From a virus (Duplodnaviria; Caudoviricetes), in IMG/VR virus record IMGVR_UViG_3300028591_000084: 64,000 nt of DNA; one strand, written 5' to 3'. Numbering within the stretch: the first letter of the stretch is position 1; each line of letters begins with the position of its first letter. The position numbers were made by a program, and so were the translations under genes. Shown here one piece after another: positions 2,266-42,382 of this stretch. Below the pieces are notes generated by a model. The model worked only from the letters and a program-made list of their open reading frames with translations. It was not told where the DNA came from and ran no database searches.

Positions 2266-2340
2266 AATTAAATAAATAAAATAAATTAAATAATATAAAT
2301 AAATAAATTAATCACTAGTGAGGGAAACTTAATCTTCCCT

Positions 2341-2361
2341 CAATAATAAGAATTTAAGGGG
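2341..2361 (-). promoter_or_regulatory. phage promoter motif CCCCTTAAATTCTTATTATTG
   Basis: Matches the window-wide consensus CCC-N7-YCTTA-N4-TG, upstream of 922..2265. Confidence 0.6.
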
Positions 2362-2455
2362 ACGTTAGGTAACTTTTTTACATTTCAGAAAGAAAAATTG
2401 AGAAAGCAATATTATACTTTCTCTGTTTGATTTTTGACGAGATTTCAAGGGAAGT

Positions 2456-2490
2456 AAAAAAAAAAGGTCCAGGATTTTACTCCTAGACCT
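2456..2490 (-). terminator. intrinsic terminator closing the tRNA / DIP1984-like / ncRNA unit
   Basis: Minus strand AGGTCTAGGA-GTAAAA-TCCTGGACCT followed by a long T run. Confidence 0.75.
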
Positions 2491-2500
2491 AAAACACTCA

Positions 2501-2804
2501 ACTAAGCAGCCTTGACGATGAGGCCGAGGGTACAACTGCAAAACCTCTACACTGGTTTGTGTACGTCGTTGAACCAAGGATTTTATCTATCTTTGATCTT
2601 TCGTCTTTCATCTTTGATAATAAAAATCTTTGATCTTTGATCTTTTCATCTTTGAACTTTCAGCTTTAAGGTAAAATTACATCTGAAACATATGGAATGT
2701 AACAAATCTAACTATTAATTCCGCTTAGTTTAATCCTAATAAGAAATCTACCTTTTTAGCCTCTAGTAGAAAGAGAGCGTTATTTTTAGCCTCTTTCGCT
2801 TAGT
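2501..2804 (-). ncRNA. candidate structured ncRNA with AAAGNNN heptamer array
   Basis: 5' ACUAAGC (2804-2798) pairs with 3' GCUUAGU (2507-2501). Ten AAAGNNN units at 2588-2667. 3' domain has CCUUG/CAAGG, GACG/CGUC and UACAC/GUGUA stems. Confidence 0.6.
2588..2667 (-). repeat. tandem 7-nt repeat AAAGNNN x10 (6+4)
   Basis: AAAGCTG AAAGTTC AAAGATG (A)AAAGATC AAAGATC AAAGATT -TTTATTATC- AAAGATG AAAGACG AAAGATC AAAGATA. Confidence 0.9.
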
Positions 2805-2812
2805 AAATATTT

Positions 2813-3436: not shown

Positions 3437-3476
3437 AAACTTTAAAAAATTAATTAATATCTTTAATATAAGTTTG

Positions 3477-3547
3477 TTGGGCCAGGAGGAGTCGAACCCC
3501 CATCCTTAGAGCCAAATTCTAATGTAATTCCGTTATACCATGGTCCA
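3477..3547 (-). tRNA. tRNA-Gln(UUG)
   Basis: Cloverleaf: acceptor TGGACCA/TGGCCCA (one mismatch), anticodon arm TTAGA-ATTTGGC-TCTAA, T arm GGGGG-TTCGACT-CCTCC. No encoded CCA. Confidence 0.9.
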
Positions 3548-3551
3548 TTAA

Positions 3552-3572
3552 CAATTATAAAGATTTGACGGG
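3552..3572 (-). promoter_or_regulatory. promoter motif CCCGTCAAATCTTTATAATTG upstream of the tRNA
   Basis: Variant of the consensus, ending 5 nt before the tRNA 5' end. Confidence 0.55.
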
Positions 3573-4760: not shown

Positions 4761-7700
4761 TTATTTCTGATTCTTAAGTCTGAATTTAACCTTCATCTCG
4801 TTAACTCTATCCTTAAGAGCTGAACCACCTTGATTATAACCCTTAGAGTCTGTTATAGTTAGACCTAATCCAAGTAAGTGATTGAGGAAGGTTTGGTTGT
4901 CTACTATAGAGGTATCCCCTCTAGCAGACTCGATAAATCCCTTAGCGCCTCTAGCCAATAAAGCAGTAAGCTCCATTTCACCAACAATCTGGCCAGTAAC
5001 TCTATAACGACCACGGCCCATTATTGGACTATCCTTCCACTCATTGACATCCACGCCAAACATAGAGGAAGTTACTTTATTGCTATAAGAAGGAATATGA
5101 TAAAGTTGAAGCAAAGTGAGAGGACCACAGTTAAGAGGCTTATCAATCTCAGTATATTTGCCTTCCATGTCCTTTGTTACCTTCAAATATTCCTCTTCAC
5201 CTAAGGCATCTTTTAATTCTTTAAGATCTGCTACTGTCTTTGTAGGAATGAGAATCCTACTTTGAGGCTTAACCCCTAGCTCATTTGCCCATTCATCCAG
5301 AAGTTGAGGTGTATATTTCAAACTATAGGATCCTACATTAAAGTAGTACATATCCTCTATTTTTGAATTATTATGCATCTCAATTACTTCTTCTACAGTC
5401 TTGCCGTTAAATCTACCTGGATAGTACTTTTCAAGCAAGGGAAGAATCTCCTTCTGTTTTATTTTTGATGTTTTATATGATTCTACTAAGTCATGGATTC
5501 TATAAGCTATTTTAGATAAGAGCTGTTCCATGTTTACTCCAGGAATTTTACGATTGACTGTTGAATAAGGGTTCATTACAACTTCAACAACTCTCTTTTC
5601 TCCAGTAGAATCATCAATCATAACGGGCATTTCGTCATCGGGCAAAATCTTACTGATAACACCCTTACCTCCAAATCGATTAGTAATTTTCGAACCGACC
5701 AAAAGATCTGTTCTCTTGATTAATCTTACTCTAACCTTATATACGAGTTTGGGGCTAGCATCATCCAAAACAATAGGACGAAGTCTATCAGCGGCTACAT
5801 AATCAGGTAATCTACTGTAAATCTCTTTCTTTCTAGACTCTTCTAATTTATCTTGATAGCCTTTAACAAGATCTTTAGCCATATAAGCCAGTGTTCTATC
5901 TGGAAGCTTAACGCCGCCTTTGACTTTCGGATTTACATTCTCCTGAATCAAAACATCAGAAACATAAGCTTCATCAATATTATTAGGTACAATAAGATCA
6001 TTAGCAATAGTATATTCACTAAGATTCTTACCCGCACCAAACATAGAACCTAACTGTCCCTGAATAACTTGATTAGCTTTATCTAACTCGATAACTTTAT
6101 AGGTCTTCACAACAGACTCCTTACTCTTAACCTTACTACCGATGGGTGCTATCCACTTAATTATTTCAGTGTTTTTAACATCCATACAGAGATCGATAAT
6201 ACTGTAAGAACACATCTTGCTTGCAAAGGACCTGCTTACTACTAGGGCGTCCTCATTAACGTATCCAAACATAGCGTGGAATAGTACAAGTGCATTAATA
6301 CCAGACTTATACGTATCCTTCTCTAAATTAACAGCTCCCACAATAACGTCGCCCTTCTTAACTTTATCACCTACCTTAACTTTAGGTTGGGTATAAACAT
6401 CGACATCATTAACTGACTGAATTGCAGATCTTCTTGGGATCTCAACTGTATCTTTATTCGGGAGCTCAATGACTACATTCTCCTCGGTAATTTCTTTAAC
6501 AACACCAGACTCCTCACGGAATCTATCGTTCAGGACATTTGATGATAGTTCTTCATAATTACCGGTATCAACAAGCGGTCGTTCTGCATTCGGTAAGGGG
6601 ATTGATTGTTTTAACCGTTGGATTTTAGAAATTATCTTTCTAAGTTAGACTATATCATCGAGTTATAGGTATAGTCGTTGAACACTGAAAGGATTTGTAT
6701 GCCCGGGCTGTTTTCATCCAATCAATGCTGCCGATTTGTTTTCTTACTTTCCGGCAATTCTTATAATTTTTAGAGCACATTAATACTATGCTCGATCCCA
6801 TGTGAATACGAACTGAATCTGAATAGTTAATAAAAGGTATTTGTCTGACCTCTTCCGACAACCTATAGTCAGGATGTTTATCAACAAGCTCCACTTCATT
6901 AGCAGGAACCATGATTTTTTTCATCCTATACTTTACCATGACCTCGCCCTTTTCATTTGGCTTAATCACATTATTGTCATAATCTACAAATTCAGAAGCA
7001 CAAACCTTCTTGTTTAAGTAGTCAAGATAAGGAATTGTGATAGGCTCAAAATTAGGAGTCATCACGTCAAATAATACATCTTCATCTGTTACATGAGTAC
7101 TAACCGTCAAAGCATTTTGTTTGTTCATGTTTTGGTTATTAGGTGTTGCCCCTACACAGATGAGATCACTAAAGGTTGAGTTATAGGCTACACTCAGAGG
7201 AACAGTAATCTTATTAGTGATAGATTCAATATTGATGGCATTAATACCTGTCGAAATCTGAATATCTTGCTCACCTTCCGATTTAGTTGAAGATCCTTTC
7301 CAGAACTTGGCACATAACATCGTAAGTACCTTAATACCGCCCTTCTCTGGCTCCATCAGTTTGCCCTGATTAGTCCAGTAATTTCGAATCTTCTTCTTTG
7401 TTCCATAAAAATTCTTTCTATTACCTCCATTAAAGATAAAATCCATAAAACCTGCTGGAACAGACTCAATTTTCTTATCAATAATCAAATCCTTAATCCA
7501 ATCATCACCAAAGGCTATACAATCCTGAATAAGCTTTCTGGTGATATACTCAGGTTTATAGTCCAGATCTAATTTAATCTGGAGCTTTTTAACTTGTCTA
7601 TCGGTAAGTCTGAGTGCCTCTTTTTCAAGACCGGAGACTTCATCAATGGCGTCGTAAGGATATTCTTTAACCCTTTCAGAAAAACCCAATAGAGGATTAT

Positions 7701-8115
7701 TTCGTCTAATCTTCAGAATTTGTTTGTCTATGTCATATTGATGGTCATAGTCAAAATTTATATAACGCTTCTTCCCCGCTAGGTTAATACGACAATCATA
7801 ATCGTTTCCTAGTGTGTTAGTTGCAATTCTAAAAGCACCCTCGATAATAAAAACACCATCGATCTCTCGAGGAACCTCAAATTCTGAATATCTAACAACG
7901 TCATCATAGTTGATCGTATACTCAAGTACTACCTTGTGAGTAGCAGTTAGACCATTCTCCACATAATATGAAGCTGGTTCACTCGGCTCTTCCGCTAAGT
8001 GCCACTTGAGATCCGTTAGTTTATTAGAACTGTAATCATCAATTCCATAACTAAAGAACCGCTCAACCATTATTTGTGCTCCTTTGTTCTTGAAATACTG
8101 ATTAAAATTACTCAT
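4761..8115 (-). CDS. rpoB: phage multi-subunit RNA polymerase beta subunit, spliced join(8115..6788,6615..4761), 1060 aa
   Basis: Motifs IPFINYSDSVRIHMGSS^MLKQSIPL (cf. RALMGSNMQRQAVPL), GYVNEDA, GSKITNRFGGKGVIS, VMNPYS and GQIVGEME. The ORF track shows it as two pieces. Confidence 0.92.
6616..6787 (-). mobile_element. group I intron (172 nt, ORF-less) in RNAP beta
   Basis: P1 exon GAGCAU pairs with IGS GUGCUC (U.G at the splice site). P10 UUAAU pairs with 3' exon GUUAA. R element UUCAACGACUA, S element GAUAUAGUCU, terminal G. Splicing restores AT|G (Met) in frame. Confidence 0.88.
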
Positions 8116-8116
8116 T

Positions 8117-8488
8117 TTATAATAGAATTTTTAAATTTATCTGCTTAAAATCGCAGTCCATTGAATTAAAATATTCCTCTAACTCTTTCTTAGCTGCTTC
8201 CTTAATCTTAGAGGCCTCCACATATTCTTCCATGGGTAGACCAACAGTAGACAAGAAATATGCCTCAAAAGTAATTAAATAATTAAATGAGTCCTTTCTT
8301 TGATACATACTGAGCTTTACAAAAAACTTATCATATCGGTCCTCGCTAACTAAAGAACTAAGTCTTTCATACAACGTCTCCCTGGCACTAAGTTTATCTG
8401 GCTCAGTACTTTCTAAAACATTATAAGGAACTTCATAAGTTAGAATTATTCTATAGTGATAATCACTTTCGTTGTTCTTATCTAACAT
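8117..8488 (-). CDS. hypothetical protein between the RNAP genes
   Basis: 123-aa ORF tightly packed between beta' and beta. Confidence 0.7.
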   Translation of the reverse strand: MLDKNNESDYHYRIILTYEVPYNVLESTEPDKLSARETLYERLSSLVSEDRYDKFFVKLSMYQRKDSFNYLITFEAYFLSTVGLPMEEYVEASKIKEAAKKELEEYFNSMDCDFKQINLKILL

Positions 8489-8493
8489 AACAC

Positions 8494-8712
8494 TTAAAAT
8501 TCCATTTCCATCATGTTTCCACTACTAACCATTGGTGTAGCGGCCTCTTTTTTCTTTTTTCCTGACTCTTTAATGGGTTTGGGCGTTACAGCCACCGGAG
8601 AAGGAGTGCTGACTGCTGATTTAACAATCTTGCCATCCTTCTTCAGTGTGACTATAATCTCTAGCTCATTCTCAAATTCAGGAACCTCAAATTCTATTTT
8701 AAGATTTCCCAT
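8494..8712 (-). CDS. small hypothetical protein between the RNAP genes
   Basis: 72-aa ORF abutting the beta' stop codon. Confidence 0.6.
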   Translation of the reverse strand: MGNLKIEFEVPEFENELEIIVTLKKDGKIVKSAVSTPSPVAVTPKPIKESGKKKKEAATPMVSSGNMMEMEF

Positions 8713-11700
8713 TTACTTTTTTGTAGCATTATCCAGTTTATCGTGTAATAACAGACCAAGAACAACGTTAGTCATAATGTCATCCTTAATCTTCATATCA
8801 CCCCTAACAGCACGATCAATAATCTTACCTGCCCAACCAAATGATAAGGTTGTAAAGAAAGATTCACGATCCAAGATAGCCTTCTGAGTACCTAAATAAT
8901 CAATCTCTTCAACCTGATCTGTTCTAGGATTTCTGACAATACGAGTAAGACCAGCAAATACCATTTCAAGAATTTCTTCAGGCATATCGCCAGGACTAAC
9001 AATACCAGTTTTACTAAAATCAGAAGACATCAACATATAGTATTGATTTCTAAATATATTAAAGGCTGAAGAAATATCATCACCGAGATCTGAGGTTACT
9101 TGTCTCATATTGACAACTCCTGAACAGATTCTCTGAAGTGGTTTGATTTCAGTTCCTTCTGGATAGTAATATAGGGAGTTTGGAGAGTAGACATATTGAG
9201 TATCTCCGACAAATACTTCAATCTCACCCCTCTTATTCTCCTCATATCTGATCTTTCCACCAAAGTAAGCATAACAGTCGGCGTTAATGACTTGATCCTT
9301 CTCAAAATACTTAGTTCCATTGCTTCCCTTAGCATTCATAAGCTTAATAACAGCATTAAGGGCATAAACGGGACTAGTAGTGTGATAAGCCGAACCAATC
9401 AAATCGCCTTCTTTATAGCTCTCTTGAGGAATGCCAACCCAATTATCAGGGCGAGGATATTTCATCTCAGTTCTACCTGATTTAAGAATAAGCCACTTTC
9501 CATCCTCAATGAGAGTGCAATTCTTTGGTGCATATAGATTTCCACTAGTATCTGCTACACGTTCATGACCACCATGTTTAAGACCAAGAATTCCCTGTGT
9601 AGTACTTTCTGAAAATGAAGTACCAGCACTAAGACCTACAGCAGATCCTTCCGGGAACGATGCCTTAAGGAATCTATTGCTAAATAAGTCGGGAGTAATG
9701 ATATCAAGGTCGCCCTTAGTCTTTGTTATAATTGATCGGACGGGTACTAAGTCAAATTCGTTTCTCTTTGATACTTCAGGATAAACCTTTCCGTTAGGAG
9801 CTGTTCTACCTGATGCTACATATCTAGGAATCAAAATACCTTCATTATCGGGATCCTGACCTGTTTTGAATATATAGTTTTGTAACAAGAAACCCATTTG
9901 TCTGTTTGTATATCCGCCAAGTGGTTGATCCCCACCAGTTAAGTAAGTGGGGACTTTGATAACAGAAATTTCTTTCTGATCTAGACTATACCTTGAGCTT
10001 CTACGCTCTCATTACATATAGTCGTTGAGCTCGCTTTTATTTTCCTCTGTCTGTGTTTTGACTTTGTTTGCTTTTGCTGGATCTTCTGTATTTCCAAGAT
10101 CCCAACTACGACTGCACCAACAGAGGCAACGAGTTTTGTCACTGCATTGATAACTGAAATTACTGAATCTACTTTCATAAGCGAGTTGCTGATTAAATTA
10201 AATTAAATTTTATCCTTCCAGCAATAATTAATGATTTTATACTGGAGCACCATTTTACCACAATTATAATTTACTCCAGAATTTTTCAGAGACAACAAAG
10301 ATCTATTCTCAATTGCATGAGAAATATAATTAGTCTCAGAGAATCCCGATAAGAGAGTTTCACCTCTCGTAATAATTGGTTTCTCCTCTGGACCACTAAC
10401 GATCAATGAAGGTGATGCCATTGACATAATAGATGCTAGTTTTACACGACCAGCTCTATCAAGCTCGTTCTTCAAGTCATCACTAAACTCTGCTTCTATT
10501 TCTTTTTGGTATTTACCATAAGATTCAGTAAGAAGTAGAAGTTTTTGTTTATCTGTGAGATCCTTATTATCACAGATTTTTTCAATTTCTTTATAAGTCT
10601 TAGTGTTAATATCAGCGTATAAGGTTTTAGTGTCGAAAGTAACCACACCTCGACGCGTTACTACTTTTAAAGCAAATTTTTGTAACTCATTCGCCTTTTC
10701 AACCCAATCCTCAAATCCATAAAGATAGGTCATTAATTTAGCTGCTGACTTACCACTAAGTCTCTGATAAGGTTTCAATATCGGTTCTCCACCAACTTGA
10801 ATCAAATCCAAGTCAGCATCAATGATCTTTGAAATCCTAAGTCTACCATAAGTCGTTGTTTTAGACTTATACTCTACATTTCCAAGTTTACCAGTAAAAA
10901 CAATTGGGGTTCCATAGTTAATAACTCTGTTTACCTCAACATCCTTAACAAGTTTAGCCCAGTCATCATAAAAATATTTGGGATTCTTTAAGTCGTCTTC
11001 ACCGTTCTCAGGTACAAACTCTGATGCATTAGCTAAGCCATCCAATGTCTCATGATTAAATTCAAAGATATTCTTTAAATTCTTTTTGTAGATATTATTA
11101 TATCTAGGAGACATTTTCTTTAGAGTTTCATCTCTCTCACTCTCTGGCACTAAGATCAAACTGACCGTATCGCCATCAAAATCAGCATTAAGAGGACCAC
11201 AAAGCTCAATAGGATAGTGAATAACGTAGTCATCAAATAGCTTAATTTTGTTACAGTAGATGCTATACTCGTGAAGAGTAGGCTGTCGATTAACTCAAAG
11301 ATTAAAAACAAATTGTCCTTAATCCCTAGACTATATCTTTTTCAATTTGCACATAGTCGTTGAACCAATACTAAGATAAATTTTGTATTTCAAATTTCAA
11401 ATTAGGATCCTCAGCTACACGATCTTTTAAATACTTGTAAATATCACGTTTCTTTGATTTTTCTAAGAATTCCGTGTACCTAGTACCTTCATCATTTAAT
11501 TTTGTGTATTTCTGAAATTTTATTAGAGTATCAAACTCTAAATCTGCTAAGATGTCTGTGGGACCGCTAATAATTGCAATCACACGACCACCTAAAATCT
11601 GTTTTGGGAGCTGCTTGTTTATCCTTCTTTCCCAATCCTTAGAAAACCCTATTTTAACACTCATAGGGAAATCTAAGAAATAGATATAGCCGGAATCACC

Positions 11701-13184
11701 CTGAAACTTATTGTGAAGCAAGGTTCTATCAGCAACTCTCATTGCGTACTCCGATCCGTACCCATGAGAAGATTTGTCTAGAACATTTCTTGCTCGTATC
11801 TGGGCCATTTTATCATGCTTAGCCTCTGATCTATTCCATTCACCTATTCTACTAGTCCCAGTATATCTACCTTGGCTATGTAAAAGTTTCATGTGTTCTG
11901 ATCTAGACCAGGGAATTTGAGGATCGGAGGGCTTAAGTATCGTCATAGGCAATTTCTCCTTTCCTTCAATCTTTCTTAGTGTTGGCTGCTGATTAGGTCT
12001 CATACCTTTCCAGCAATTCTCAAATTATTAGTACCAGTTATACCTAGCACTGCCTGTTCCTCTGCATATTCCTTGAACATCTTCTGTATTTCAGGATTTT
12101 CAAACTCCTCCTGAGTAGACTTCTTAGCTTCCTCAACAGTAAAGTTAAGCTCTTTAACCAAATAGTTAATAAACCCTTCTCTACACATTTCATAAGCAAT
12201 GGAAATAGGAACACCAATTCTATCGACAGGTAATTCAGCGTCGGGAACAATAGGGAGTCTAGCCGAATTCTTCACACGAACTGAATATAAATCACGAGCC
12301 TCATTCTTTTTACTGGTATTTAACAGATCAGTGGCCTGCTTCTTACCAGCATTAAGTAACGCCCTGAGAAGAGCAGTATAACGAACCTTTTCACCTGGGG
12401 TGTCAAATTGCTCAATAACTTTACTGTATCTCTGAATAGACTCTTCATCCTTATCACTGCAAAATCTAGTAATAATACCATACCAAGTCGTGAGTGGATT
12501 AGAAGTAATTTTTTTCTTACCACCAATCATCATCGCTGATATAGGCCTCATTGCAGCAGGGAGAACTAAGTATTCTTTATTGACTAATCTCTTAAATTCA
12601 GGAACGTAACCAGGGAAATGCTTCTCAAGGATCGCTAAAAGACCCTCATAAGAACACTTCTTCTCGTCCGTTATAAACTCAGAGACCTTCAATTCATTCT
12701 TTGCCTTACTGTACGTAAATTGACAAGTATCAAAAGCTTTAATACCTAGTTTCTTAGCACTACGACCAGCATAACCATTTCTCCTAAGATCGTTACCGAA
12801 AAACTCTAACTTAATCTTAGTATCCTTGAATATCTGATCGAACAATTCTTTGAAGACATTAAATCTCAACTCATTCAAATAATAGAAAGCTAAATCAATT
12901 CTTGCAAATCTTCTTAAAGCCTCCTCTTTCGAATAAACTCTTGCACCACAATTAGGACAAGGAACACTACTTTCCTGTTTAATATGACCACAAATACACT
13001 GACCTACAAAAGGAGAGCCAAACATATCTAAGTCATATAAACCACCATTAACTGGAGTTAGTGTTGTTGAGAAACGAAGGTTGTAGTCTCCGTGATCAGT
13101 GATGACACGCTCTTTACCACCTTCAGATTTAGTATAATCCAAAATGTCCTCGTCAGTTAATAATTCAAGACTTACTTCTGCCAT
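8713..13184 (-). CDS. rpoC: phage multi-subunit RNA polymerase beta' subunit, spliced join(13184..12046,11295..10273,9925..8713), 1124 aa
   Basis: N-terminal Zn finger CICG...CPNCG, VL^VNRQPTLH, catalytic NADFDGD (in 11160-11295, missed by the ORF track), bridge-helix NSGV^PLGGYTNRQ and trigger-loop SFSESTTQGILGLKHGG. Confidence 0.92.
9926..10272 (-). mobile_element. group I intron (347 nt) in RNAP beta', predicted 3'-terminal A
   Basis: P1 exon CUGGAGU pairs with IGS GCUCCAG. P10 UGGU pairs with exon ACCA. P4 UUGCUGG/UCAGCAA, R CUCAACGACUA, S AGGUAUAGUCU, and a GUCCCCAC/GUGGGGAU hairpin before the 3' end. Confidence 0.85.
9981..10178 (-). CDS. intron-internal small ORF (hydrophobic helix + basic tail)
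   Basis: 65-aa ORF starting in the P6 loop insertion (flanked by CUCGCUU/AAGCGAG) and reading through the P7 core. Confidence 0.35.
   Translation of the reverse strand: MKVDSVISVINAVTKLVASVGAVVVGILEIQKIQQKQTKSKHRQRKIKASSTTICNESVEAQGIV
11296..12045 (-). mobile_element. group I intron (750 nt) in RNAP beta' carrying a homing endonuclease ORF
   Basis: P1 exon AGUGCU pairs with IGS GGUACU. P10 UAACU pairs with exon AGUUA. P4 UUGCUGG/UCAGCAG, R UUCAACGACUA, S AGAUAUAGUCU, terminal G. Splicing restores CT|A in VLVNRQPTLH. Confidence 0.9.
11371..12003 (-). CDS. intron-encoded GIY-YIG-like (T5orf172-type) putative homing endonuclease
   Basis: GYIYF...VKIGFSKDWERRI...LE motif preceded by short basic helical repeats (RSEHMK, RSEAKHDKM). 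Lies inside the intron. Confidence 0.7.
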   Translation of the reverse strand: MRPNQQPTLRKIEGKEKLPMTILKPSDPQIPWSRSEHMKLLHSQGRYTGTSRIGEWNRSEAKHDKMAQIRARNVLDKSSHGYGSEYAMRVADRTLLHNKFQGDSGYIYFLDFPMSVKIGFSKDWERRINKQLPKQILGGRVIAIISGPTDILADLEFDTLIKFQKYTKLNDEGTRYTEFLEKSKKRDIYKYLKDRVAEDPNLKFEIQNLS

Positions 13185-13196
13185 GATATTATAAAA

Positions 13197-14318
13197 TTAA
13201 TTCACACGTAAATCTTTCCAGATGATCTTGTTGGCGAAACTAGAATCAATAGGATTCTCCTCCGACCATTCTTTGTAAACCTGCTTGACATCCTCAATCG
13301 CTAAGGCTCTCGTCTTAGTCTTCTCACCAAGATTCTCGTAGATCTTACCCGGCTCAATGACCACTTCAATAAATTCACTGATCAACTCCTGAGTAATACT
13401 TCTTGATGCATTGGTAAATTTAGGACGAAATTCCCTATAATCCTGAATATCTTCATAGGTTAACTCCAAATCTGCATAACCAGCTCTGTTTCTAATCTCA
13501 GCAGGCTCGTTCTTCTTATCAAACCACTCTAAACCCATCTTTCTAACACGATCAGCAACCTTCTGACGACCCTTAGACTCATAGCGTTGAGCTAGTTGTT
13601 CAACTATTTCATACTGTAAGTCTTGAATCTTACTAAATGCTGCATTGATCTGCTTGTCATACTCCTCAGGCATTGTGGGACAATTAAGAATTAAGTCATA
13701 AAGATTAGAAGAGAATAAGAAAATTATAAAAGCAGGCAATTGACGCTGCTTACGTCTCTTACTGGTAATACTATCCTTGCTGAGATCTCGATTAGCTAAG
13801 TATTCAACAAACTTAGCAATATGTTCACGTGCTGCTTTGGCAAACTCCTCATTAAAGCCGTTATCACCAGTACCACCAAACTCCTCAGGCAAATCACTAG
13901 CACTGAGAGGCTTGTCCGGAACATATACACTCGAAGGAATACGGTTGTGAGACTGAGTATTGAAAACCTCGTTAGTCATGAAAGTAACAGTAGCAGAAGA
14001 AGTATTGGCAGGAATAGCATTCAGCACATTAGTAACTGCATCAACTAGATTCCCGTCAAAAATACCACTATCAAAACTTACCCTGTTCTTATTCTTACGA
14101 CTAGAAGCAGATATATTGTCATAAAACGTAGACATATCTATCTCCCTCTTAGTCATTTTACCTTCATAATTACTATTATCTACTTCTATATCTTCACCTT
14201 CATCCTCGAAATCTATATCTTCATCTTCTTCTTCTTCCTTGGAATCATCCTCTGGTTCCTCGTAATAAGAAGCAGCAAGACCATCTTCTTCATCTAATAA
14301 ATAATCATCATCATACAT
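13197..14318 (-). CDS. hypothetical protein with very acidic N-terminus, first gene of the RNAP operon
   Basis: 373 aa; roughly the first 50 residues are D/E-rich. Ends 12 nt upstream of beta'. Confidence 0.75.
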   Translation of the reverse strand: MYDDDYLLDEEDGLAASYYEEPEDDSKEEEEDEDIDFEDEGEDIEVDNSNYEGKMTKREIDMSTFYDNISASSRKNKNRVSFDSGIFDGNLVDAVTNVLNAIPANTSSATVTFMTNEVFNTQSHNRIPSSVYVPDKPLSASDLPEEFGGTGDNGFNEEFAKAAREHIAKFVEYLANRDLSKDSITSKRRKQRQLPAFIIFLFSSNLYDLILNCPTMPEEYDKQINAAFSKIQDLQYEIVEQLAQRYESKGRQKVADRVRKMGLEWFDKKNEPAEIRNRAGYADLELTYEDIQDYREFRPKFTNASRSITQELISEFIEVVIEPGKIYENLGEKTKTRALAIEDVKQVYKEWSEENPIDSSFANKIIWKDLRVN

Positions 14319-17027: not shown

Positions 17028-17044
17028 ATTTCGAGAAAAAAAAT

Positions 17045-17079
17045 AAAAAAAGAAGTTATTCATCACGAACCACTTCTTT
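17045..17079 (-). terminator. intrinsic terminator with the same C-GUGAU-G loop as the 20-kb array
   Basis: Minus strand AAAGAAGTGGTTC-GTGAT-GAATAACTTCTTT followed by a T run. Confidence 0.7.
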
Positions 17080-17096
17080 CTTCCCTTAAAACTCTC

Positions 17097-18488: not shown

Positions 18489-18840
18489 TAATAAATTTGA
18501 TTACATCTTTCAGATTTAGGTTTCTAGTACCCATCTTTCTTAGAATGAGAGCTCCTATTGATTTATAAGCTTGCTCCAATCTAAAATCATCTCTAATATT
18601 AATAAAGTCCTTAAGTTCTTTCTTTACTTTCTTTATAATTTTTAAGTCAGAATCTTCAAGACTTTCAGTATTTGATAAAACTGTAAATCCACAATCTTCA
18701 CATTTAAATATTGCGGTTTTAAAGGGTCCGACATCTTCAATAAAATGTGGAATATCATTGGAGTCTCTTTCTATAATTTTTAAGATTCCAGTTTTTCCAC
18801 AAACAGGACATTTTATTATTTCAACTTCGTATTCTTTCAT
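18466..18840 (-). CDS. Zn-ribbon protein
   Basis: CPVCG...CEDCG. Confidence 0.65.
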   Translation of the reverse strand: MKEYEVEIIKCPVCGKTGILKIIERDSNDIPHFIEDVGPFKTAIFKCEDCGFTVLSNTESLEDSDLKIIKKVKKELKDFINIRDDFRLEQAYKSIGALILRKMGTRNLNLKDVIKFINDSTWKT

Positions 18841-19907
18841 TTGTTTTTAGCTATTATAGCATCAGGACTAAGAATAATTGTTTCTACTTCACCAATAAAT
18901 TCTTTTAGGGTTTTCTTTCCAGTATAAGACATAGCAGACTTAAGATAGTCAGTCATATTAGTAGTCCAACTTTCAAGAGTGTATTCAACATTAAGAAATA
19001 CTCTTATTCCTTCTGCAGTTTTTGTCTTAACTCCAAACAAAGCAGTTTGACCTTCTCTACTAGCCATTCCATAGAATGTTGCAGTAATATCACCCAAGAA
19101 TATCTTTTTATTATTAAAGGTGCCGTACCAAGCCTTCCCCTCTCTGTGAATATCTGTAAGGTCTGATAACTCAGTTTCTATTGGTAGAGAAAACCATTCA
19201 TCACTATTACACGTTTTTGGCGCAGCAGATTCAAGCGCCTTAGCAAACACACTGCCAATCATAACGTAATCAGCACCAAGGGCCAAGGCTTTAATAACAT
19301 CTGCATAACCTCTAACTCCTCCATCAGCAATAATCTTAGTATTACCTTTGATTGATTTCTTAATCTCGGCTGTCTCTTTAATTAGAGATCCCATAGCATA
19401 GTGAACTCCCAGATTACTACTACTAATACACCCTCTTCCTGAGCCTATTCCAAGTCGAATATAATCAACTCCGGCTTCATTAGCAATTCGATAGGTTTCA
19501 GGATTAGCAATATTACCAGCCATTATAATAAGTTCGGGACAAATTTCTTTTGCTTTTTTGATATAGTCGTATAGAATTTTCATATGTCCGTTAGCAATAT
19601 CAATCAGAACCTTACCCTTCCTCGGTTTAAAGTCTTTAAATTCCTCCAAAGATAAAGCAATCCAGGTTCCCTTATCGAACTGTCTCATTCTAAGTTCAAG
19701 TGCATAGGTTCTAGGAATGATTGGAATAATCCCAACTTTCTTATATTCCTCAATATTCTTCAAGCCAACAACAGTATCCATTGGGGCTGTAAAGATAGGT
19801 AAGGATCCTTCTTCAGTTAAGACACTACAATCACTTCTATGCTCTATCTCACTGATGATTGCAGGTACAATAGAGACATCATTGTATGAAAACTTAATAT
19901 TACCCAT
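18837..19907 (-). CDS. GMP reductase / IMP dehydrogenase family (no CBS domains)
   Basis: APMDTV, IDIANGH, catalytic GIGSGRGCISS, IIADGG, MIGS and FYGMAS. Start moved to ATG 19907 because TTG 19928 lies inside the promoter motif at 19926-19946. Confidence 0.88.
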   Translation of the reverse strand: MGNIKFSYNDVSIVPAIISEIEHRSDCSVLTEEGSLPIFTAPMDTVVGLKNIEEYKKVGIIPIIPRTYALELRMRQFDKGTWIALSLEEFKDFKPRKGKVLIDIANGHMKILYDYIKKAKEICPELIIMAGNIANPETYRIANEAGVDYIRLGIGSGRGCISSSNLGVHYAMGSLIKETAEIKKSIKGNTKIIADGGVRGYADVIKALALGADYVMIGSVFAKALESAAPKTCNSDEWFSLPIETELSDLTDIHREGKAWYGTFNNKKIFLGDITATFYGMASREGQTALFGVKTKTAEGIRVFLNVEYTLESWTTNMTDYLKSAMSYTGKKTLKEFIGEVETIILSPDAIIAKNK

Positions 19908-19984
19908 AAAATAGTAGTTTATATTCAACTTTAAGGGTAGGGAGGGAGGATAGAGGCATTTTTTATTGAAGTGGACTCTGTATT

Positions 19985-20502
19985 AAAAAAAAGAGAGAGA
20001 CTATCCATCACGAACAATCTCTCTTTAAAAAGGAAAACATTTAATAAGAGGTCCATAATTGATTTTTCTCTCGCATATAAGGTTTTGATGGGAAAATAAA
20101 AAAAGAGAGACCATTTATAATAAATAGCCTCCCTCTTGACAAAATCAGGACTTGGTTCTCAAGCCATAATTAAGGTATTGGGTTGAGTGTAAATAAAAAA
20201 AAGAGACTATTCATCACGAACAATCTCTTTGTGAAACCAATTAAATCTTTGCCAATCCAATGTAAAAGGTCAATTGACATTTAGTCATATATAAGGTTTT
20301 GATGGGAAAATAAAAAAGAGAGAGACTATCCATCTCGGACTATCTCTCTACAAAATAATAAATATGTCAATAAATCATATATAAGGTTTTGATGGGAAAA
20401 TAAAAAAGAGAGACTATCCATCTCGGACTATCTCTCTTAGCGAAAAAAAAATAAAATATGGAAAAAAATTATCTACAATTTCAATTTTAAGGTATTGAGG
20501 TG
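19985..20502 (-). repeat. five-unit array: promoter + variable segment + conserved hairpin/U-tract (candidate small-RNA array)
   Basis: Promoters at 20072-20092, 20165-20185, 20286-20306, 20376-20396 and 20482-20502. Hairpin AGAGAU(U/A)GU(U/C)C-G(U/A)GAU-G(G/A)AUAGUCUCU + U-tract in four units, divergent in unit 2. Confidence 0.8.
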
Positions 20503-20572
20503 ATATGAGGAGTAAAATTTACTTTCCTAAGACTCTTAATTCTTTATTACTAGATAAAATGCTTAAATTAAT

Positions 20573-22432
20573 ATGGTTAACGAAAGTAGTAATTATTTTG
20601 ACTTAGTATTAGCTATGTTTAACCAATACCTCTTTCAGGAGTGTAAGTCTAACATTGATGACATTATGTATGCTTATCAGGTTACTCCCTCGACAAGTGA
20701 TAATGCCTTCGTGGAACAATTGCTTAGTGCAATTAAGAATTACAGCCTAGATAGTATTGGTTATCCCTTGTTTCAGAGTATTTTTAGTAGGACCGGTAAG
20801 ACGCAGGCCGAATCAACTGAAATACTAAATAAGATTGTTGAATATAAAAAATACACTAAGGATCAGATTGCACCGTTCCGAACTTTGATTCGTGATATTG
20901 TAGCTCATTCTTATATTATTCGAGCTAATAATCTATATGGTGATAGTCCTAGTGAATTTATTAGTTATCTCAAGAATACTACATTTAAGTCGTCTGAAGA
21001 GGACTATTTTGTGACGACGAAATTTAAGGATCTTGATATTAACACTATAATAGCAGAAAGAGCTGACGGTGGCATCCCCAGTGCTTTTAACTGGATTAAT
21101 CAAACTTTTAGACCAGAATGTTGTTATCCTACCTCTGGTTTGATGTGTATTGCTATGCCACCAGGATGTATGTCGGGAGATACTGAGGTATTCCTAGCAG
21201 ACGGGACTGTAGATACTTTAGAGAATCTATATAAGAAGAAGGTTGAAGGTATTACAGTTTATTCTTGTGATGGAGAAACATCAAAAGTCTCCGTTGCTGA
21301 AAATTGTCAGATTTCTAAGTATGTGAGTGAGTGGTATGTTGTGGAGGTTGATGGTAAAAGAGAATATAGAGTAACTGAAAATCACCCACTATTATTAATG
21401 GGTGGGGAATGGAAAAGAGCTGATAAGTTAAAGATTGGTGATACTTTAATGTCATTCAATATTAAGTCAGCAGATAAAACAACTCACACAATCACTAATG
21501 TTTATCTTGAAAAATTAGATACTCCTCATCCAGTATATGATCTAGTAAATGTAGCTCTTTATCATAATTATGCAGTTAAGTTTGATGATGAGTCTGGATT
21601 CTTCAGTCATAATACAGGTAAGACTCTGTTTTGTATGCAGGAGTGTTTAAATATGTGTTTGATGGGTAAAAAGTGTCATTATCTCTGTATGGGTGATATG
21701 ACAGAAGAGGATTTTATTATTAGAATGTCGGCTCAGTATTTAGGGATCCCATTTTATGAGGTTAAACGTAATATCCTTCAGTGTTACAATGAGTTAGCGA
21801 AAGCGATAGGTGATAATTTGTCTATTTCCTGTATTCCTGCCTCAGCAATGACGGTAGATGACTATGTTGAAGAGATGAAGAATAAGCCTTATGATGTTTT
21901 GTTTATTGATTATGATAGTCAATTTAAATCAAATGTGGCTACAGAATCTATGTACTTAACTTATGGCGATATCTATGCCAAGCTATCAGAACTGACAGTT
22001 TCATATAAAAAGCTTGTTTTCATCCTAGCCCAACCAATGAAAGCTGCTTGGAGTTTACCCGTTATCGAGATGGATCAAGTTGGTGAATCTGCCCGAAAGA
22101 TTCATACCGTCGATTGGTGCTTAACTAGGGCTAGACTTCCAGAGAATCTCAATGGTTTAGGAACTAGTAAAATTGTTAAGTCTAGACGAGGTGAGGAACA
22201 AGTTATAGATTATAATATCCGTTTATCTAATGGCAGATTTAAGTCAGTTCCAAAGAGCGTGTTTGAGAAATTGGCTGAGATAAAGGATAAGCAAGAGTTT
22301 AAGGAGGCTGAGATTGATCATTTTATTGAGTCTTATTATAGAATCAATAAGGAAATTCAGTCAGATATTAAAAAGAAAACAACAGCACCAGGGTCAAGTT
22401 CTGGAAAGGATGCTTTGCCTTGGGAAAATTAA
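20573..22432 (+). CDS. DnaB-like replicative helicase with intein
   Basis: Walker A AMPPG|TGKT split by an intein, Walker B LFIDY, LAQ motif, VKSRRG arginine finger. Confidence 0.85.
   Translation: MVNESSNYFDLVLAMFNQYLFQECKSNIDDIMYAYQVTPSTSDNAFVEQLLSAIKNYSLDSIGYPLFQSIFSRTGKTQAESTEILNKIVEYKKYTKDQIAPFRTLIRDIVAHSYIIRANNLYGDSPSEFISYLKNTTFKSSEEDYFVTTKFKDLDINTIIAERADGGIPSAFNWINQTFRPECCYPTSGLMCIAMPPGCMSGDTEVFLADGTVDTLENLYKKKVEGITVYSCDGETSKVSVAENCQISKYVSEWYVVEVDGKREYRVTENHPLLLMGGEWKRADKLKIGDTLMSFNIKSADKTTHTITNVYLEKLDTPHPVYDLVNVALYHNYAVKFDDESGFFSHNTGKTLFCMQECLNMCLMGKKCHYLCMGDMTEEDFIIRMSAQYLGIPFYEVKRNILQCYNELAKAIGDNLSISCIPASAMTVDDYVEEMKNKPYDVLFIDYDSQFKSNVATESMYLTYGDIYAKLSELTVSYKKLVFILAQPMKAAWSLPVIEMDQVGESARKIHTVDWCLTRARLPENLNGLGTSKIVKSRRGEEQVIDYNIRLSNGRFKSVPKSVFEKLAEIKDKQEFKEAEIDHFIESYYRINKEIQSDIKKKTTAPGSSSGKDALPWEN
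21167..21613 (+). mobile_element. mini-intein (149 aa, no endonuclease) in the helicase P-loop
   Basis: Starts CMSGDT, block B VTENHP, block F VYDL, ends SHN followed by Thr. Confidence 0.9.
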
Positions 22433-28374: not shown

Positions 28375-29858
28375 GTTGGAGATTAGTTTGTGATATTGAT
28401 GCCTATATTGGTGATGATAATACAGTAGTTTTCGCACCAACAGTAGAGACAAAGAGAGTATTATCGAAGTATATTAAACATATTTCAGGACATACAAAGA
28501 AAGTTATTCTAGAGGATCCTCAGTTTAGTTTATCTATTACAGACGATTTAAAGATTCTCTGTAAGTCTGACGAGCTGCCTGAATGGTGTACTGTAAAGAA
28601 TTTTGCTGACTCTACTGTAGGAAGAATTATTAGTCAGAACTTAATCTCTAAGACTCAAGGCCAGTTTGATAGCCAAGAGTTTGAGATTATAATTAATAAT
28701 GATGAGGGCTTCGTTAGCTTTGTTACAAGTGAAATGAAAGAATATGATGATTGTTACGATGAAATGAATCGTCAACTCTATTTTTCTATTGGAAAGAAAG
28801 TAAAGAAGCTGATTGTAGGTCATAAGTATTATAGTTCTGAGGATTCGTTTTATTATCTAGGAACTTTTCTTAGCAGAAAAACCGGAGGAGATGTTATATC
28901 TGATTTTGAAACAAATGTAGATAGTCTTCAGAAAGTATATCTGATTTACAAAGGTGTAGCCCCCAGAGATGGTTCAGGAAAGATCAGTGATATTCTTAAG
29001 TCTAACTATCCATCCGCCCTTGGTAATTTAAGACTTGTTTTTAAACTTGGTAGCGTTGTAGATGGTGGAAAGGGACTTATTGATGATGTTCCTGATATTA
29101 GACCTTATTTTGAGTGTATTATTCAGAATGCCTTAGGACAACCTGGAGTTAACCCTCTTGAAATTTTATCAATCTGGAAAAAAGATTGGGAAGCTAAGTT
29201 GTCAGAAGATATAGTTGAACTGATTCTTAAGTATTACAAGGATCTCTGTGTTAGTACTTTAATTAGTGAATGGGATGTTGTAAAGTCTAATATGATTTCT
29301 AAAGCTAATACAGAGAAAGATAATCTTAATAATCTCCAGTCAAAGACCTGTGCACTCATTGATACTAATAATGTTTGGTCAGGACCTTTCTATCAAAACC
29401 TATTTCAGTATTTTGGGATCGATATACAGGCGATTACATCACAAGTCTTAAAGACAATTGAAAATCCTATTAACTATGTTTTTAGTAGTTGGGAAACCTA
29501 TTCTAAGTACTATGAGATTTTCTTTGCTAATCATTTTGTAGTTAATAATAGAGACTTGGATCAAACTGTAAAAAAGTCAAATAAGATCCAGCCAATTACT
29601 GAATTATTGGGAGAAGGGCCTTTATCGGAGGCAATTAAATTCCTACTAGATGAGGCAAGAGAAAATAAAGTAATTTTATCATCTTTTGTCTTTTTACCTA
29701 AAGCTGAGGGAGATGGTTATTTTATTAGAGCCAGAGTAACCTTAGCTGACATCATTAATAATATCAACTTGACGGATGATCTCAAGAAGGATATTATTAA
29801 GAAGAAGTTTAATTACATTAACGTCAGTTTTGACGAGAATGCAGAAATCATTTTATGA
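28371..29858 (+). CDS. hypothetical protein
   Basis: 495-aa ORF with ATGA overlaps at both ends. Confidence 0.75.
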   Translation: MSWRLVCDIDAYIGDDNTVVFAPTVETKRVLSKYIKHISGHTKKVILEDPQFSLSITDDLKILCKSDELPEWCTVKNFADSTVGRIISQNLISKTQGQFDSQEFEIIINNDEGFVSFVTSEMKEYDDCYDEMNRQLYFSIGKKVKKLIVGHKYYSSEDSFYYLGTFLSRKTGGDVISDFETNVDSLQKVYLIYKGVAPRDGSGKISDILKSNYPSALGNLRLVFKLGSVVDGGKGLIDDVPDIRPYFECIIQNALGQPGVNPLEILSIWKKDWEAKLSEDIVELILKYYKDLCVSTLISEWDVVKSNMISKANTEKDNLNNLQSKTCALIDTNNVWSGPFYQNLFQYFGIDIQAITSQVLKTIENPINYVFSSWETYSKYYEIFFANHFVVNNRDLDQTVKKSNKIQPITELLGEGPLSEAIKFLLDEARENKVILSSFVFLPKAEGDGYFIRARVTLADIINNINLTDDLKKDIIKKKFNYINVSFDENAEIIL

Positions 29859-30142
29859 AACAAGAAAATATAAAATGTGATGGTGAAGTAGTACAAGAAC
29901 TAGGTAATTCTATGTTTAATGTGATGTTAGACTTAAAGGGAGAAGATCATACTGTTATCTGTACTATATCTGGTAAGATTCGTAAAAATTTTATCAGAAT
30001 TATGACAGGTGATAAAGTTACTATTGAAATGAGTCCCTATGATCTAACGAGAGGACGTATTGTTTTTAGATATCCTCCTATTGCTTCACGACAGGTAGAT
30101 TCAGAGTTAATTAATAATAAGTCTAACAAAAAGAAAAAGTAA
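29855..30142 (+). CDS. infA: translation initiation factor IF-1
   Basis: GEVVQELGNSMFNV...ISGKIRKNFIRIMTGDKVTIEMSPYDLTRGRIVFR. Confidence 0.93.
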   Translation: MKQENIKCDGEVVQELGNSMFNVMLDLKGEDHTVICTISGKIRKNFIRIMTGDKVTIEMSPYDLTRGRIVFRYPPIASRQVDSELINNKSNKKKK

Positions 30143-41964: not shown

Positions 41965-41985
41965 CCCCCCAAAACCTTATATATG
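41965..41985 (+). promoter_or_regulatory. promoter motif CCCCCCAAAACCTTATATATG
   Basis: 19/21 identical to the array promoter CCCATCAAAACCTTATATATG, and located upstream of a protein gene. Confidence 0.7.
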
Positions 41986-42058: not shown

Positions 42059-42382
42059 ATGGAGAATACACAGCAAACGCAACCCGAGAAGAAGTCTTGG
42101 GTGAAGAAGACGATCAGGGTAGTCGGTAAGGCTGCCTTGTTAGTAGGCGTAGGATACGTCTGCTACAAACAAGGGAAGGACAAGGAGTTCATTCCCGGGA
42201 CCTGTCGTAAGGTCAAAAGTACGGTCTTCCCAACTAGGGAGGCCGACCAGGCATTAGAGCCTGAGATGAGGTCAGAGGAGCCTGTAGCTGCTCCGACGAC
42301 AAGCGAGAGTTATCGCCAGGGTCAGAATGGTGGTTTTTACCGCCAAGGCCATGGCAAGTTCAACAACAACAGCAACAACTAA
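42059..42382 (+). CDS. small membrane-anchored protein
   Basis: Hydrophobic VVGKAALLVGVGYVCY followed by a disordered tail. Confidence 0.65.
   Translation: MENTQQTQPEKKSWVKKTIRVVGKAALLVGVGYVCYKQGKDKEFIPGTCRKVKSTVFPTREADQALEPEMRSEEPVAAPTTSESYRQGQNGGFYRQGHGKFNNNSNN

What the first reader, a model, noticed from the sequence alone, without database searches (positions are those of the whole stretch)
19985..20502. Array of five self-contained small-RNA cassettes (promoter - variable segment - conserved hairpin), two antisense to translation-start-like sequences
Seen: five tandem ~90-115-bp units. On the minus strand each begins with the 21-bp motif that precedes protein genes and the tRNA elsewhere (e.g. 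CCCATCAAAACCTTATATATG, 19/21 identical to 41965-41985). Each then has a unique ~25-55-nt segment, then a hairpin plus U-tract. The hairpin pairs best on the minus strand (G.U wobbles), shows covariation (UUC/GGA, UUC/GAA, UCC/GGA), and keeps a C-G(U/A)GAU-G loop in 4 of 5 units. The plus-strand reads of two variable segments look like SD-less translation starts: ACAAAATAATAAAT-ATG-TCAATAAAT (MSIN) and AAAATAAAAT-ATG-GAAAAAAATTATCTACAA (MEKNYLQ). Inference: a modular array of ~60-90-nt RNAs with a swappable 5' guide and a constant 3' handle, which could silence host (e.g. defence) or phage mRNAs. It is not CRISPR, because every unit has its own promoter and terminator. Alternative: micro-peptides (unit 3 could encode MTKCQLTFYIGLAKI, unit 1 MREKNQLWTSY) or protein-sponging RNAs.
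Basis: partly seen in the sequence, partly recalled or inferred. Interest (0 to 1): 0.87.

Follow-up and report, generated by a model that had tools for sequence, protein, structure and literature searches.

The report
Phage array of host-style small-RNA genes
A roughly 312-kb rumen jumbo phage carries five back-to-back miniature genes with no protein inside, each with its own phage promoter and ending in the RNA hairpin that caps FopS and other small regulatory RNAs of Bacteroidales, so the phage probably makes a set of host-style small RNAs whose targets are unknown.

Summary
On the minus strand, 20502-19985 holds five units of 88-119 bp. Each has a phage promoter motif, 25-54 nt of unique sequence and an intrinsic-terminator hairpin with a T-tract. 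They should give RNAs of about 66-92 nt.

The promoter motif is shared by related jumbo phages (39-81 copies per genome against 1-7 in controls). Four of the five hairpins carry one conserved cap: G.U and U-A pairs plus a GNGA(U) loop.

In a complete relative (G002, 363 kb) this cap sits almost only on ORF-less promoter-proximal units: 15 of 18 capped terminators against 10 of 169 others (p = 4e-13). That argues for a real class of small-RNA genes rather than deletion scars.

The same 15-nt cap ends FopS (RF04319) and other promoter-driven sRNA-like units in Bacteroidales genomes. The phage units themselves do not match the FopS model.

The "guide" reading is weak. Only unit A looks anti-start-codon above chance (p = 0.004). 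No unit has above-chance complementarity to phage DNA.

An apparent metatranscriptome contig starts 9 nt after unit E's promoter and reads through into the downstream operon.

This scan has found similar arrays before in other giant Bacteroidota phages. I found no published description.

The parts
20397..20502 (-). Unit A. Variant promoter motif (TCACCTCAATACCTTAAAATTG, last G at 20482), then about 42 nt of U-rich unstructured segment, then the capped hairpin (20404-20437) and a T-tract. Predicted RNA about 83 nt.
   Evidence: The segment's complement resembles a translation start (p = 0.004).
20307..20396 (-). Unit B. Exact 21-bp promoter motif (20396-20376), a 25-nt segment, the capped hairpin (20318-20349) and a T-tract. 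Predicted RNA about 66 nt.
   Evidence: The hairpin-plus-promoter junction is nearly identical to the A/B junction (family D2).
20190..20306 (-). Unit C. Exact 21-bp promoter motif (20306-20286), a 54-nt segment containing an 18-bp near-palindrome (20265-20282), the capped hairpin (20203-20230) and a T-tract. Predicted RNA about 92 nt.
20093..20189 (-). Unit D. Variant promoter motif (CAATACCTTAATTATG, last G at 20165), a 27-nt segment with a small 5' hairpin, then a terminator hairpin (20101-20137) with the family's lower stem but an AU-rich top in place of the cap. Predicted RNA about 69 nt.
19984..20092 (-). Unit E. Promoter motif with 2 mismatches (20092-20072), a 47-nt segment, the capped hairpin (19994-20024) and a run of 8 T. 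Predicted RNA about 86 nt. It also serves as a leader, because it is read through into the GMP-reductase-like operon.
   Evidence: RNA-like contigs L001 and L002 start at 20063 and run on to 17036 and 17186.
19908..19983 (-). Leader and promoter region of the GMP-reductase-like gene. It holds a decayed promoter-like stretch (AATACAGAGTCCAC...) and a promoter variant (CCCTACCCTTAAAGTTG) about 20 nt before the ATG at 19907.
   Evidence: AATACAGACTCCAC also follows the last unit of the related array in L059/L069.
17036..17083 (-). The same capped hairpin (top TTCGTGATGAA) acting as terminator of the 463-aa gene. RNA-like contig L001 ends at the last T of its T-tract.
41965..41985 (+). Copy of the promoter motif (19/21), placed after a terminator and 74 nt before the gene at 42059.
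3548..3572 (-). Promoter variant CCCGTCAAATCTTTATAATTG, ending 4 nt before tRNA-Gln (3476-3547).

Best explanation
The locus is a row of five independent small non-coding RNA genes of a jumbo phage that encodes its own multisubunit RNA polymerase.

Each unit is transcribed from a phage-specific promoter (core YCAAAACCTTATATATG, start at or near the final G). Each is stopped about 66-92 nt later by an intrinsic terminator.

In four units the terminator carries a conserved cap: Y-R, Y-R, U-A and G.U pairs, usually an A.A mismatch, and a GNGA(U) loop. The same cap ends FopS and other small RNAs of the presumed host group, Bacteroidales.

Inferred: the RNAs act in trans, using the host-type 3' module for stability or for a host factor. 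The unique 5' parts may pair with targets. Unit A looks like an anti-start-codon seed of the FopS/GibS type. Alternatively the 5' parts may simply ride along in a decoy role.

Unit E doubles as a leaky leader of the downstream GMP-reductase-like operon.

Shown: the anatomy, conservation of promoter and cap, the specific link between the cap and ORF-less units, and identity of the cap with host sRNA terminators. Not shown: discrete small transcripts, any target, any binding protein.
For: Anatomy and excess over chance.

The phage has split RNAP beta-like genes.

Promoter. The motif is conserved in three IMG/VR jumbo phages, at 39, 81 and 55 sites with up to 3 mismatches against 1-7 in controls. 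It sits after terminators and before genes and tRNAs.

Cap association in G002. Of 88 promoters, 56 lead into ORFs and 20 head ORF-less units that end within 190 nt; 13 of those 20 carry the cap and one more a near variant. Of 187 terminator-like hairpins, 15 of 18 capped ones lie within 170 nt of a promoter, against 10 of 169 uncapped ones (odds ratio 80, p = 4e-13).

Structure. In 34 distinct hairpins from at least five phage lineages, stem pairs 6-13 are 91-100% paired, with 4-8 pair types each.

Host link. The pattern of cap plus T-run found 38 places in 185,579 species' genomes, about 30 of them in Bacteroidales. Seven hits in the 18 loci scanned are FopS, RF04319; by sequence context about a dozen of the 38 places are FopS copies. 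Several others have a TAnnTTTG promoter 50-75 nt upstream.

RNA evidence. Contig L001 (JGI 3300024345) spans 20063 to 17036. It starts 9 nt after unit E's motif and ends at the last T of the capped terminator. The same sample's L008 carries polA as one 1195-aa frame with no intron, whereas a DNA contig has it split into 885 + 246 aa.

Unit A's complement scores above the median real start region (12.6 against 9.2; 0.4% of shuffles reach it).
Against: No direct evidence that 66-92-nt RNAs accumulate.

The only RNA-like contig shows read-through of unit E, not termination.

The RNA origin of JGI 3300024345 is inferred, not documented.

No unit matches RF04319 or any Rfam family, even at E up to 10.

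The variable parts are unrelated to each other. They show no above-chance complementarity to the window. For 18 G002 units tested against the whole G002 genome the median rank is 0.70.

Units B-E are not anti-start-like.

The invariance of the cap's top four pairs in the comparative set is partly circular, because hairpins were collected with a pattern that fixes them.

GNRA-type loops are common in terminators generally.

No moderately diverged relative of this phage was found, so selection on the variable parts could not be measured.
Confidence: 0.6

Rival explanations
1. PeSL-like regulatory cassettes. The conserved thing is the terminator-plus-promoter junction, which serves as a portable transcription signal and a recombination site. 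The short segments between junctions are functionless spacers or scars left after genes were lost.
For: The A/B and B/C junctions (hairpin + T-tract + promoter) are nearly identical over about 65 nt. DNA assemblies break exactly there, at about 20314 and 20408. The variable segments show no homology, targets or conserved ORFs. PeSLs are described as promoter plus stem-loop cassettes that mediate shuffling (PMC2839356).
Against: Scars should carry any kind of terminator, yet the cap is tied to ORF-less units with an odds ratio of 80. Arrays of up to six ORF-less units recur in distant relatives. The same cap ends bona fide host sRNAs. No ORF-containing version of any unit was found. PeSL promoters are sigma-70-like and flank ORFans, which is not the case here.
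Confidence: 0.15
2. A stack of promoters with leaky attenuators that tunes the downstream GMP-reductase-like operon. The short RNAs are by-products. Read-through, perhaps controlled by a factor that binds the cap or by an alternative fold, is the point.
For: L001 and L002 start at unit E and read through its hairpin into the operon. Unit E's minimum-energy fold pairs its 5' GAGAGA with the terminator's 3' arm (-23.6 against about -16.7 kcal/mol for the terminator alone). That is an antiterminator-like alternative. All five units point toward the operon.
Against: The operon has its own promoter variant 20 nt before the ATG. In G002 capped units are usually followed by a fresh promoter before the next gene, or stand next to convergent genes. 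This model does not explain why host sRNAs share the cap.
Confidence: 0.12
3. Decoy or sponge RNAs. Only the constant cap matters. Many copies made from strong phage promoters titrate a host protein that recognises the caps of host sRNA terminators. The 5' parts are free to drift.
For: Cap density is far higher in the phages (5 in 64 kb; 18-23 in 363 kb) than in host genomes (1-3 per 3-5 Mb). The 5' parts are unrelated, vary from 25 to 110 nt and have no detectable phage targets.
Against: No protein is known to bind this cap. The RbpB CLIP peaks on FopS lie in the 5' portion, not the terminator (PMC11697453). Unit D lacks the cap yet is retained.
Confidence: 0.1
4. Micro-peptide genes, for example a 15-aa ORF in unit C, or leaderless ORFs that start at the ATG of the promoter motif.
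For: The motif ends in ATG and the transcription start is probably there, so leaderless translation is conceivable. Unit C has a 15-codon ORF. A 41-codon ORF (20056-19931) runs through unit E's hairpin.
Against: ORFs from the motif's ATG are 6-35 codons, irregular and not conserved across 20 units in G002. Before real genes the same ATG is followed by early stops. Gene callers called nothing here.
Confidence: 0.03

Closest known systems
FopS (family of paralogous sRNAs, Rfam RF04319) and GibS of Bacteroides thetaiotaomicron (PMC11697453)
   Same: These are RNAs of about 70 nt with a single-stranded 5' part and a Rho-independent terminator. They are multicopy. FopS copies in Parabacteroides and Bacteroides end in the same 15-nt cap, GUCCGUGAUGGAUAG. 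FopS blocks translation starts, and unit A has an anti-start look. The paper notes a FopS sequence in one Bacteroides phage.
   Different: No unit matches RF04319, even at E up to 10. None carries the R1' seed. The promoters are phage-specific, not sigma-ABfr TAnnTTTG. The 5' parts all differ from one another. The units are packed head to tail.
PeSL (promoter-early stem-loop) cassettes of T4-type phages (PMC2839356)
   Same: Repeated modules of terminator stem-loop plus strong promoter, clustered in a large phage genome and prone to recombination.
   Different: PeSLs use sigma-70-like promoters and flank ORFans whose gain and loss they mediate. Here nothing lies between the modules, and the hairpin cap is specific to ORF-less units.
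Short promoter-to-terminator units and sRNAs mapped in phiKZ-like jumbo phages (201phi2-1, PMC11512511)
   Same: A jumbo phage with its own RNA polymerases. Transcription units in which a terminator follows a start site at once were read as sRNAs (11 found). Terminators carry conserved sequence motifs.
   Different: Those are mostly single 5'-UTR-derived RNAs in Pseudomonas phages. Tandem arrays with a host-sRNA-type cap are not reported there.
CRISPR arrays
   Same: Alternation of constant and variable short segments.
   Different: Every unit has its own promoter and terminator. The variable parts range from 25 to 54 nt. The repeats are not identical. No leader or cas genes are present.

Membership tests
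FopS (RF04319) | Match to the Rfam covariance model at or above its gathering score (56 bits) | tested here: not met
   A permissive cmscan of 19800-20700 (E up to 10) lists no RF04319 hit. Host copies score 73-80 bits.
FopS (RF04319) | Conserved 5' seed R1' (GUUUUUCAUGGUAUUAG-like) in a single-stranded 5' region | tested here: not met
   None of the five segments holds it. Unit A has a different U-rich CAU stretch that is anti-start-like.
FopS (RF04319) | Rho-independent terminator hairpin with a GUGA-type loop | tested here: met
   Four units have it. The 15-nt cap is identical or within 1-2 changes of FopS copies in Parabacteroides and Bacteroides.
FopS (RF04319) | Transcription from a sigma-ABfr promoter (TAnnTTTG) and binding by RbpB | tested here: not met
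   The promoters are the phage motif instead. RbpB binding cannot be tested with these tools.
Intrinsic (Rho-independent) terminator | G+C-containing stem-loop directly followed by a T-run on the transcribed strand | tested here: met
   RNA-like contig L001 ends at the last T after the capped hairpin at 17036.
PeSL cassettes | Sigma-70-like early promoter joined to a stem-loop | tested here: not met
   The stem-loop-plus-promoter junction exists, but the promoter is a phage-specific motif. The sigma-70 scan is at background, 33 sites against 30.6 expected.
PeSL cassettes | Cassettes flank ORFans, and recombination between them inserts or deletes those ORFs | tested here: not met
   No ORF lies between any two junctions here, or in the arrays of G002 and L069. 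Strain-level gain and loss could not be examined.
CRISPR array | Near-identical direct repeats, spacers of uniform length, one leader promoter, cas genes nearby | tested here: not met
   Repeat copies are 64-100% alike, the segments are 25-54 nt, and every unit has its own promoter and terminator. No cas-like gene lies in the flanks.
Trans-acting base-pairing sRNA (general) | A discrete stable transcript and a complementary target | not testable with these tools
No above-chance complement was found in phage DNA. The host genome is unknown.

The most novel reading that the evidence does not exclude
Jumbo phages of Bacteroidales carry batteries of phage-transcribed small RNAs. These copy the 3' terminator cap of host sRNAs such as FopS in order to enter, or jam, the host's sRNA machinery. 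Each has a different 5' end that reprogrammes host or phage translation during infection. That would be a modular, expandable riboregulator system of a virus.
Probability: 0.3. Interest if true: 0.8.

Novelty: new variant of a known kind. Interest (0 to 1): 0.62.

Why it matters
Phage-encoded regulatory RNAs are barely explored, and nothing is known about them in the huge phages of gut and rumen Bacteroidota.

This locus and its relatives give a concrete, testable class: dozens of tiny phage-promoter-driven RNA genes per genome, marked by one hairpin cap that host small RNAs also use.

If the cap is a handle for a host factor, it points to an unknown RNA-binding partner in Bacteroidales, which lack Hfq and ProQ. 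It would also point to a way for phages to take over or blunt host post-transcriptional control.

The work also yields a conserved promoter motif for the phage polymerases of this clade.

Tried and rejected

Whole genome. None is held for the window.

IMG/VR. It holds no exact copy of the 21-mer or of the window's hairpin, and no close relative by the GMP-reductase-like protein.

Synteny. The GMP-reductase-like gene failed as an anchor. The nearest homologues are at most 61% identical and sit in different neighbourhoods.

Metagenome scan. The scan with the hairpin pattern gave mostly chance or coding hits. Only L016, L052, L059 and L069 were relatives.

Rfam. Nothing was found at either threshold.

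Homology among the variable segments. None was convincing. The one 'significant' pair, A against the reverse of E, is a low-complexity artefact.

RNA duplex scans. The whole-window duplex scan timed out. A later duplexfold scan of start regions gave implausible output and was discarded. Exact-complement tests replaced them.

L059 against L069. The two differ too little to measure selection. The changes are homopolymer lengths plus two changes in one hairpin, including GUGAU to GUGA.

Replication origin. I considered this because the locus lies next to dnaB at a GC-skew turn. I dropped it because the skew follows gene orientation and similar arrays occur at many sites in relatives.

Box C/D or T-arm mimicry. 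I considered this for the hairpin and dropped it for lack of the partner elements.

Literature. Searches for the sample and run accessions found nothing.

Full report
**What is there.** The 665-bp gap between the GMP-reductase-like gene (18837-19907, minus) and a DnaB-like helicase gene with an intein (20573-22432, plus) holds five head-to-tail units on the minus strand.

- Each unit starts with a promoter-like motif. Units B and C have the exact 21-mer, E has 2 mismatches, and A and D have a variant.
- The 21-mer gives 4 matches with up to 3 mismatches against 0.01 expected. The shared core CAAWACCTTAW gives 6 matches against 0.48 expected.
- Then come 25-54 nt of unique sequence, a hairpin and a T-tract.
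- The hairpins fold better on the minus strand, and only there are they followed by T-runs.
- Four of the five share the top TYCGWGATGRA (4 matches to the 25-nt pattern, 0 expected). Unit D keeps the lower stem but has another top.
- Measured from the motif's last G to the T-tract, the predicted RNAs are about 83, 66, 92, 69 and 86 nt.

**The motif is a phage promoter.**

- Variants lie 4 nt before tRNA-Gln, 74 nt before the gene at 42059 (just after a terminator), and before the genes at 47159, 58014 and 19907.
- The phage encodes split multisubunit RNA-polymerase beta-like proteins. It is about 312 kb, judged from the longest contig carrying its GMP-reductase-like protein.
- The core YCAAAACCTTATAKATG occurs in several IMG/VR jumbo phages. 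With up to 3 mismatches it occurs 39, 81 and 55 times in G001 (305 kb), G002 (363 kb) and G003 (254 kb), against 1-7 for the reversed control.
- In relatives it sits after terminators and before genes and tRNAs, with leaders of a few nucleotides before tRNAs (L016). That places the transcription start at or near the terminal ATG.

**RNA evidence, indirect.**

- Contig L001 (JGI 3300024345) equals window 20063 to 17036. It begins 9 nt after unit E's motif and ends at the last T of the T-tract behind the 463-aa gene. That terminator carries the same capped hairpin.
- L004 begins 9 nt after a promoter-like G before dnaB.
- In the same JGI sample, L008 carries polA as a single 1195-aa frame with no group I intron. 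The DNA contig from SRR8436538 has it as 885 + 246 aa with a 443-nt gap.
- I therefore read this sample as a metatranscriptome. This is an inference; no record of the sample was found.
- If so, unit E's promoter is active, the capped hairpin at 17 kb marks a real 3' end, and unit E's own hairpin is at least partly read through.
- DNA contigs break inside the array, at about 20314 and 20408, as expected for near-identical junctions.

**Relatives show a class, not a one-off.**

- A metagenome scan with the hairpin pattern found four related loci. L016 reads promoter, tRNA, capped hairpin, promoter, gene. L052 holds a capped hairpin followed by the promoter motif. L059 and L069 carry two ORF-less units after a Clp-like gene, and L069 has two more capped hairpins near its start.
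- In G002, which I fetched whole, 88 promoters were found. Of these, 56 lead into an ORF of at least 45 aa, and 20 head ORF-less units that end in a terminator within 190 nt. Thirteen of those 20 carry the cap and one more a near variant.
- Of 187 terminator-like hairpins in G002, 18 carry the cap. Fifteen of the 18 lie within 170 nt of a promoter, against 10 of the 169 others (odds ratio 80, p = 4e-13).
- G002 has tandem rows of up to six such units (31.3-31.9 kb) and of three (272.1-272.4 kb).
- Deletion scars or generic regulatory cassettes would not select one kind of terminator, so this association is the main argument for real small-RNA genes.

**The hairpin.**

- In 34 distinct hairpins from the window, L016, L052, L069, G001 and G002, stem pairs 6-13 are 91-100% canonical, with 4-8 different pair types each.
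- Pair 5 is usually a mismatch (A.A in 15).
- Pairs 1-4 are Y-R, Y-R, U-A and G.U.
- The loop is G(U/A/C)GA, with or without one extra U.
- The fixed top is partly a consequence of the search pattern. The covarying lower stem, the T-tract and the upstream promoter are not.
- L059 and L069 differ by GUGAU against GUGA in one hairpin, so the extra U is dispensable.

**Link to host small RNAs.**

- A scan of one genome per prokaryote species for the 15-nt cap plus a T-run gave 38 places, about 30 of them in Bacteroidales: Parabacteroides, Prevotella and Prevotellaceae, Bacteroides, Alloprevotella and Tannerellaceae.
- By sequence context about a dozen are copies of one roughly 70-nt RNA. Rfam identifies the seven such copies present in the 18 loci scanned as FopS, RF04319, at 73-80 bits.
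- Several other hits, mostly in Prevotellaceae, have a TAnnTTTG promoter 50-75 nt upstream and so look like other host sRNA genes.
- Host genomes hold only 1-3 exact caps each. The window holds 5 in 64 kb.
- The phage units are not FopS. There is no RF04319 match even at E up to 10, no R1' seed, and a different promoter.
- FopS sRNAs have a single-stranded 5' seed that blocks the translation start of susC mRNAs. They are bound by RbpB in their 5' part (PMC11697453).

**Is the 5' part a guide?**

- The five segments are unrelated to one another.
- Their longest exact complements elsewhere in the window are at chance: the fraction of shuffles doing as well is 0.60-0.92.
- The same holds for 18 G002 units against all of G002, with a median of 0.70 and one unit at 0.03.
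- I scored the segments against a start-region profile built from 67 window genes. Unit A's complement scores 12.6, against a real-start median of 9.2; 0.4% of shuffles reach it. Unit B scores 4.8 (17% of shuffles). Units C-E are at or below chance.
- So one of the two claimed anti-start segments holds up. Short seeds and host targets remain untested.

**Verdict.**

- Most likely (about 0.6) these are five phage small-RNA genes with a host-type terminator cap. Whether they work by base-pairing, as decoys for a cap-binding factor, or partly as a leaky leader is open.
- On the leader possibility: unit E's best fold pairs its 5' GAGAGA with the terminator's 3' arm.
- The PeSL-type cassette reading (PMC2839356) explains the repeated junctions and the assembly breaks. 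It does not explain the cap's specificity.
- Short start-to-terminator units and terminator motifs have been mapped in phiKZ-like phages (PMC11512511). I found no published account of arrays like this one.
- Earlier follow-ups in this scan reported similar arrays in other giant Bacteroidota phages and named FopS as the nearest family. My cap-to-FopS link comes from an independent genome scan, but it agrees with them.

Noticed in passing
L008 7369-10956 (window 59426 onward and beyond the window end): Contig L008 from JGI 3300024345 carries the phage polA as one uninterrupted 1195-aa frame with no Rfam intron. A DNA contig of the same phage has it as 885 + 246 aa with a 443-nt gap. This looks like a spliced group I intron and suggests the sample is RNA.
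   Followed up: partly
window 19984-20072 (-): Unit E's minimum-energy fold (-23.6 kcal/mol) pairs its 5' GAGAGA with the 3' arm of its own terminator. That is an antiterminator-like alternative and fits the read-through seen in L001. A 41-codon ORF (20056-19931) also runs through the hairpin.
   Followed up: partly
window 20265-20282: An 18-bp near-perfect palindrome (AAATGTCAATTGACCTTT on the minus strand) lies just downstream of unit C's promoter and could be an operator. Unit B holds a half-site-like ATTGACAT.
   Followed up: no
window 20573-22432 (+): DnaB-like replicative helicase interrupted by an intein (Pfam Intein_splicing and PT-HINT at residues about 206-347; PHROG DnaB at 347-572).
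   Followed up: no
window 4761-14318 (-): A run of split RNA-polymerase beta-like genes (phrog_3295, phrog_2987). The 'gaps' between them (6342-6654, 8489-8712, 9898-10202, 11160-11370) read like coding sequence. These may be introns, frameshifts or missed genes.
   Followed up: no
window 2266-2812 (-): Further ORF-less mini-units with other hairpins. One is a promoter-like CCCCTTAAATTCTTATTATTG followed at once by the hairpin AGGGAAGATTAAGTTTCCCT. They sit beside the AAAG-heptamer-rich RNA-like region that another first-stage note flagged.
   Followed up: no
L129 (G003:201100-201700, minus strand): In the 25%-GC jumbo phage G003, four promoter motifs spaced 40-45 bp apart alternate with tiny GGGAAU...CCC hairpins directly upstream of a tRNA cluster. 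It is the same kind of array but with a different hairpin and almost no body.
   Followed up: no
G002 143100-143310, 209855-210000: A second repeated hairpin family (AGACATAGTATTAGAT...ATCTAGTATTATGTCT) ends three other ORF-less promoter-proximal units in G002. This may be a second class of phage small RNA.
   Followed up: no
L172, L175, L182, L184, L187, L191 (Prevotellaceae genomes): Units of TAnnTTTG promoter, 50-75 nt and the same capped terminator that Rfam does not recognise. Several contain UUUUCAU-like anti-start stretches. They look like undescribed host sRNA genes sharing the FopS-type cap.
   Followed up: partly
window 29855-30142 (+): A 95-aa phage protein with an IF1/eIF-1a S1-like fold (PF01176, from the precomputed table). 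It is a possible RNA-binding protein.
   Followed up: no
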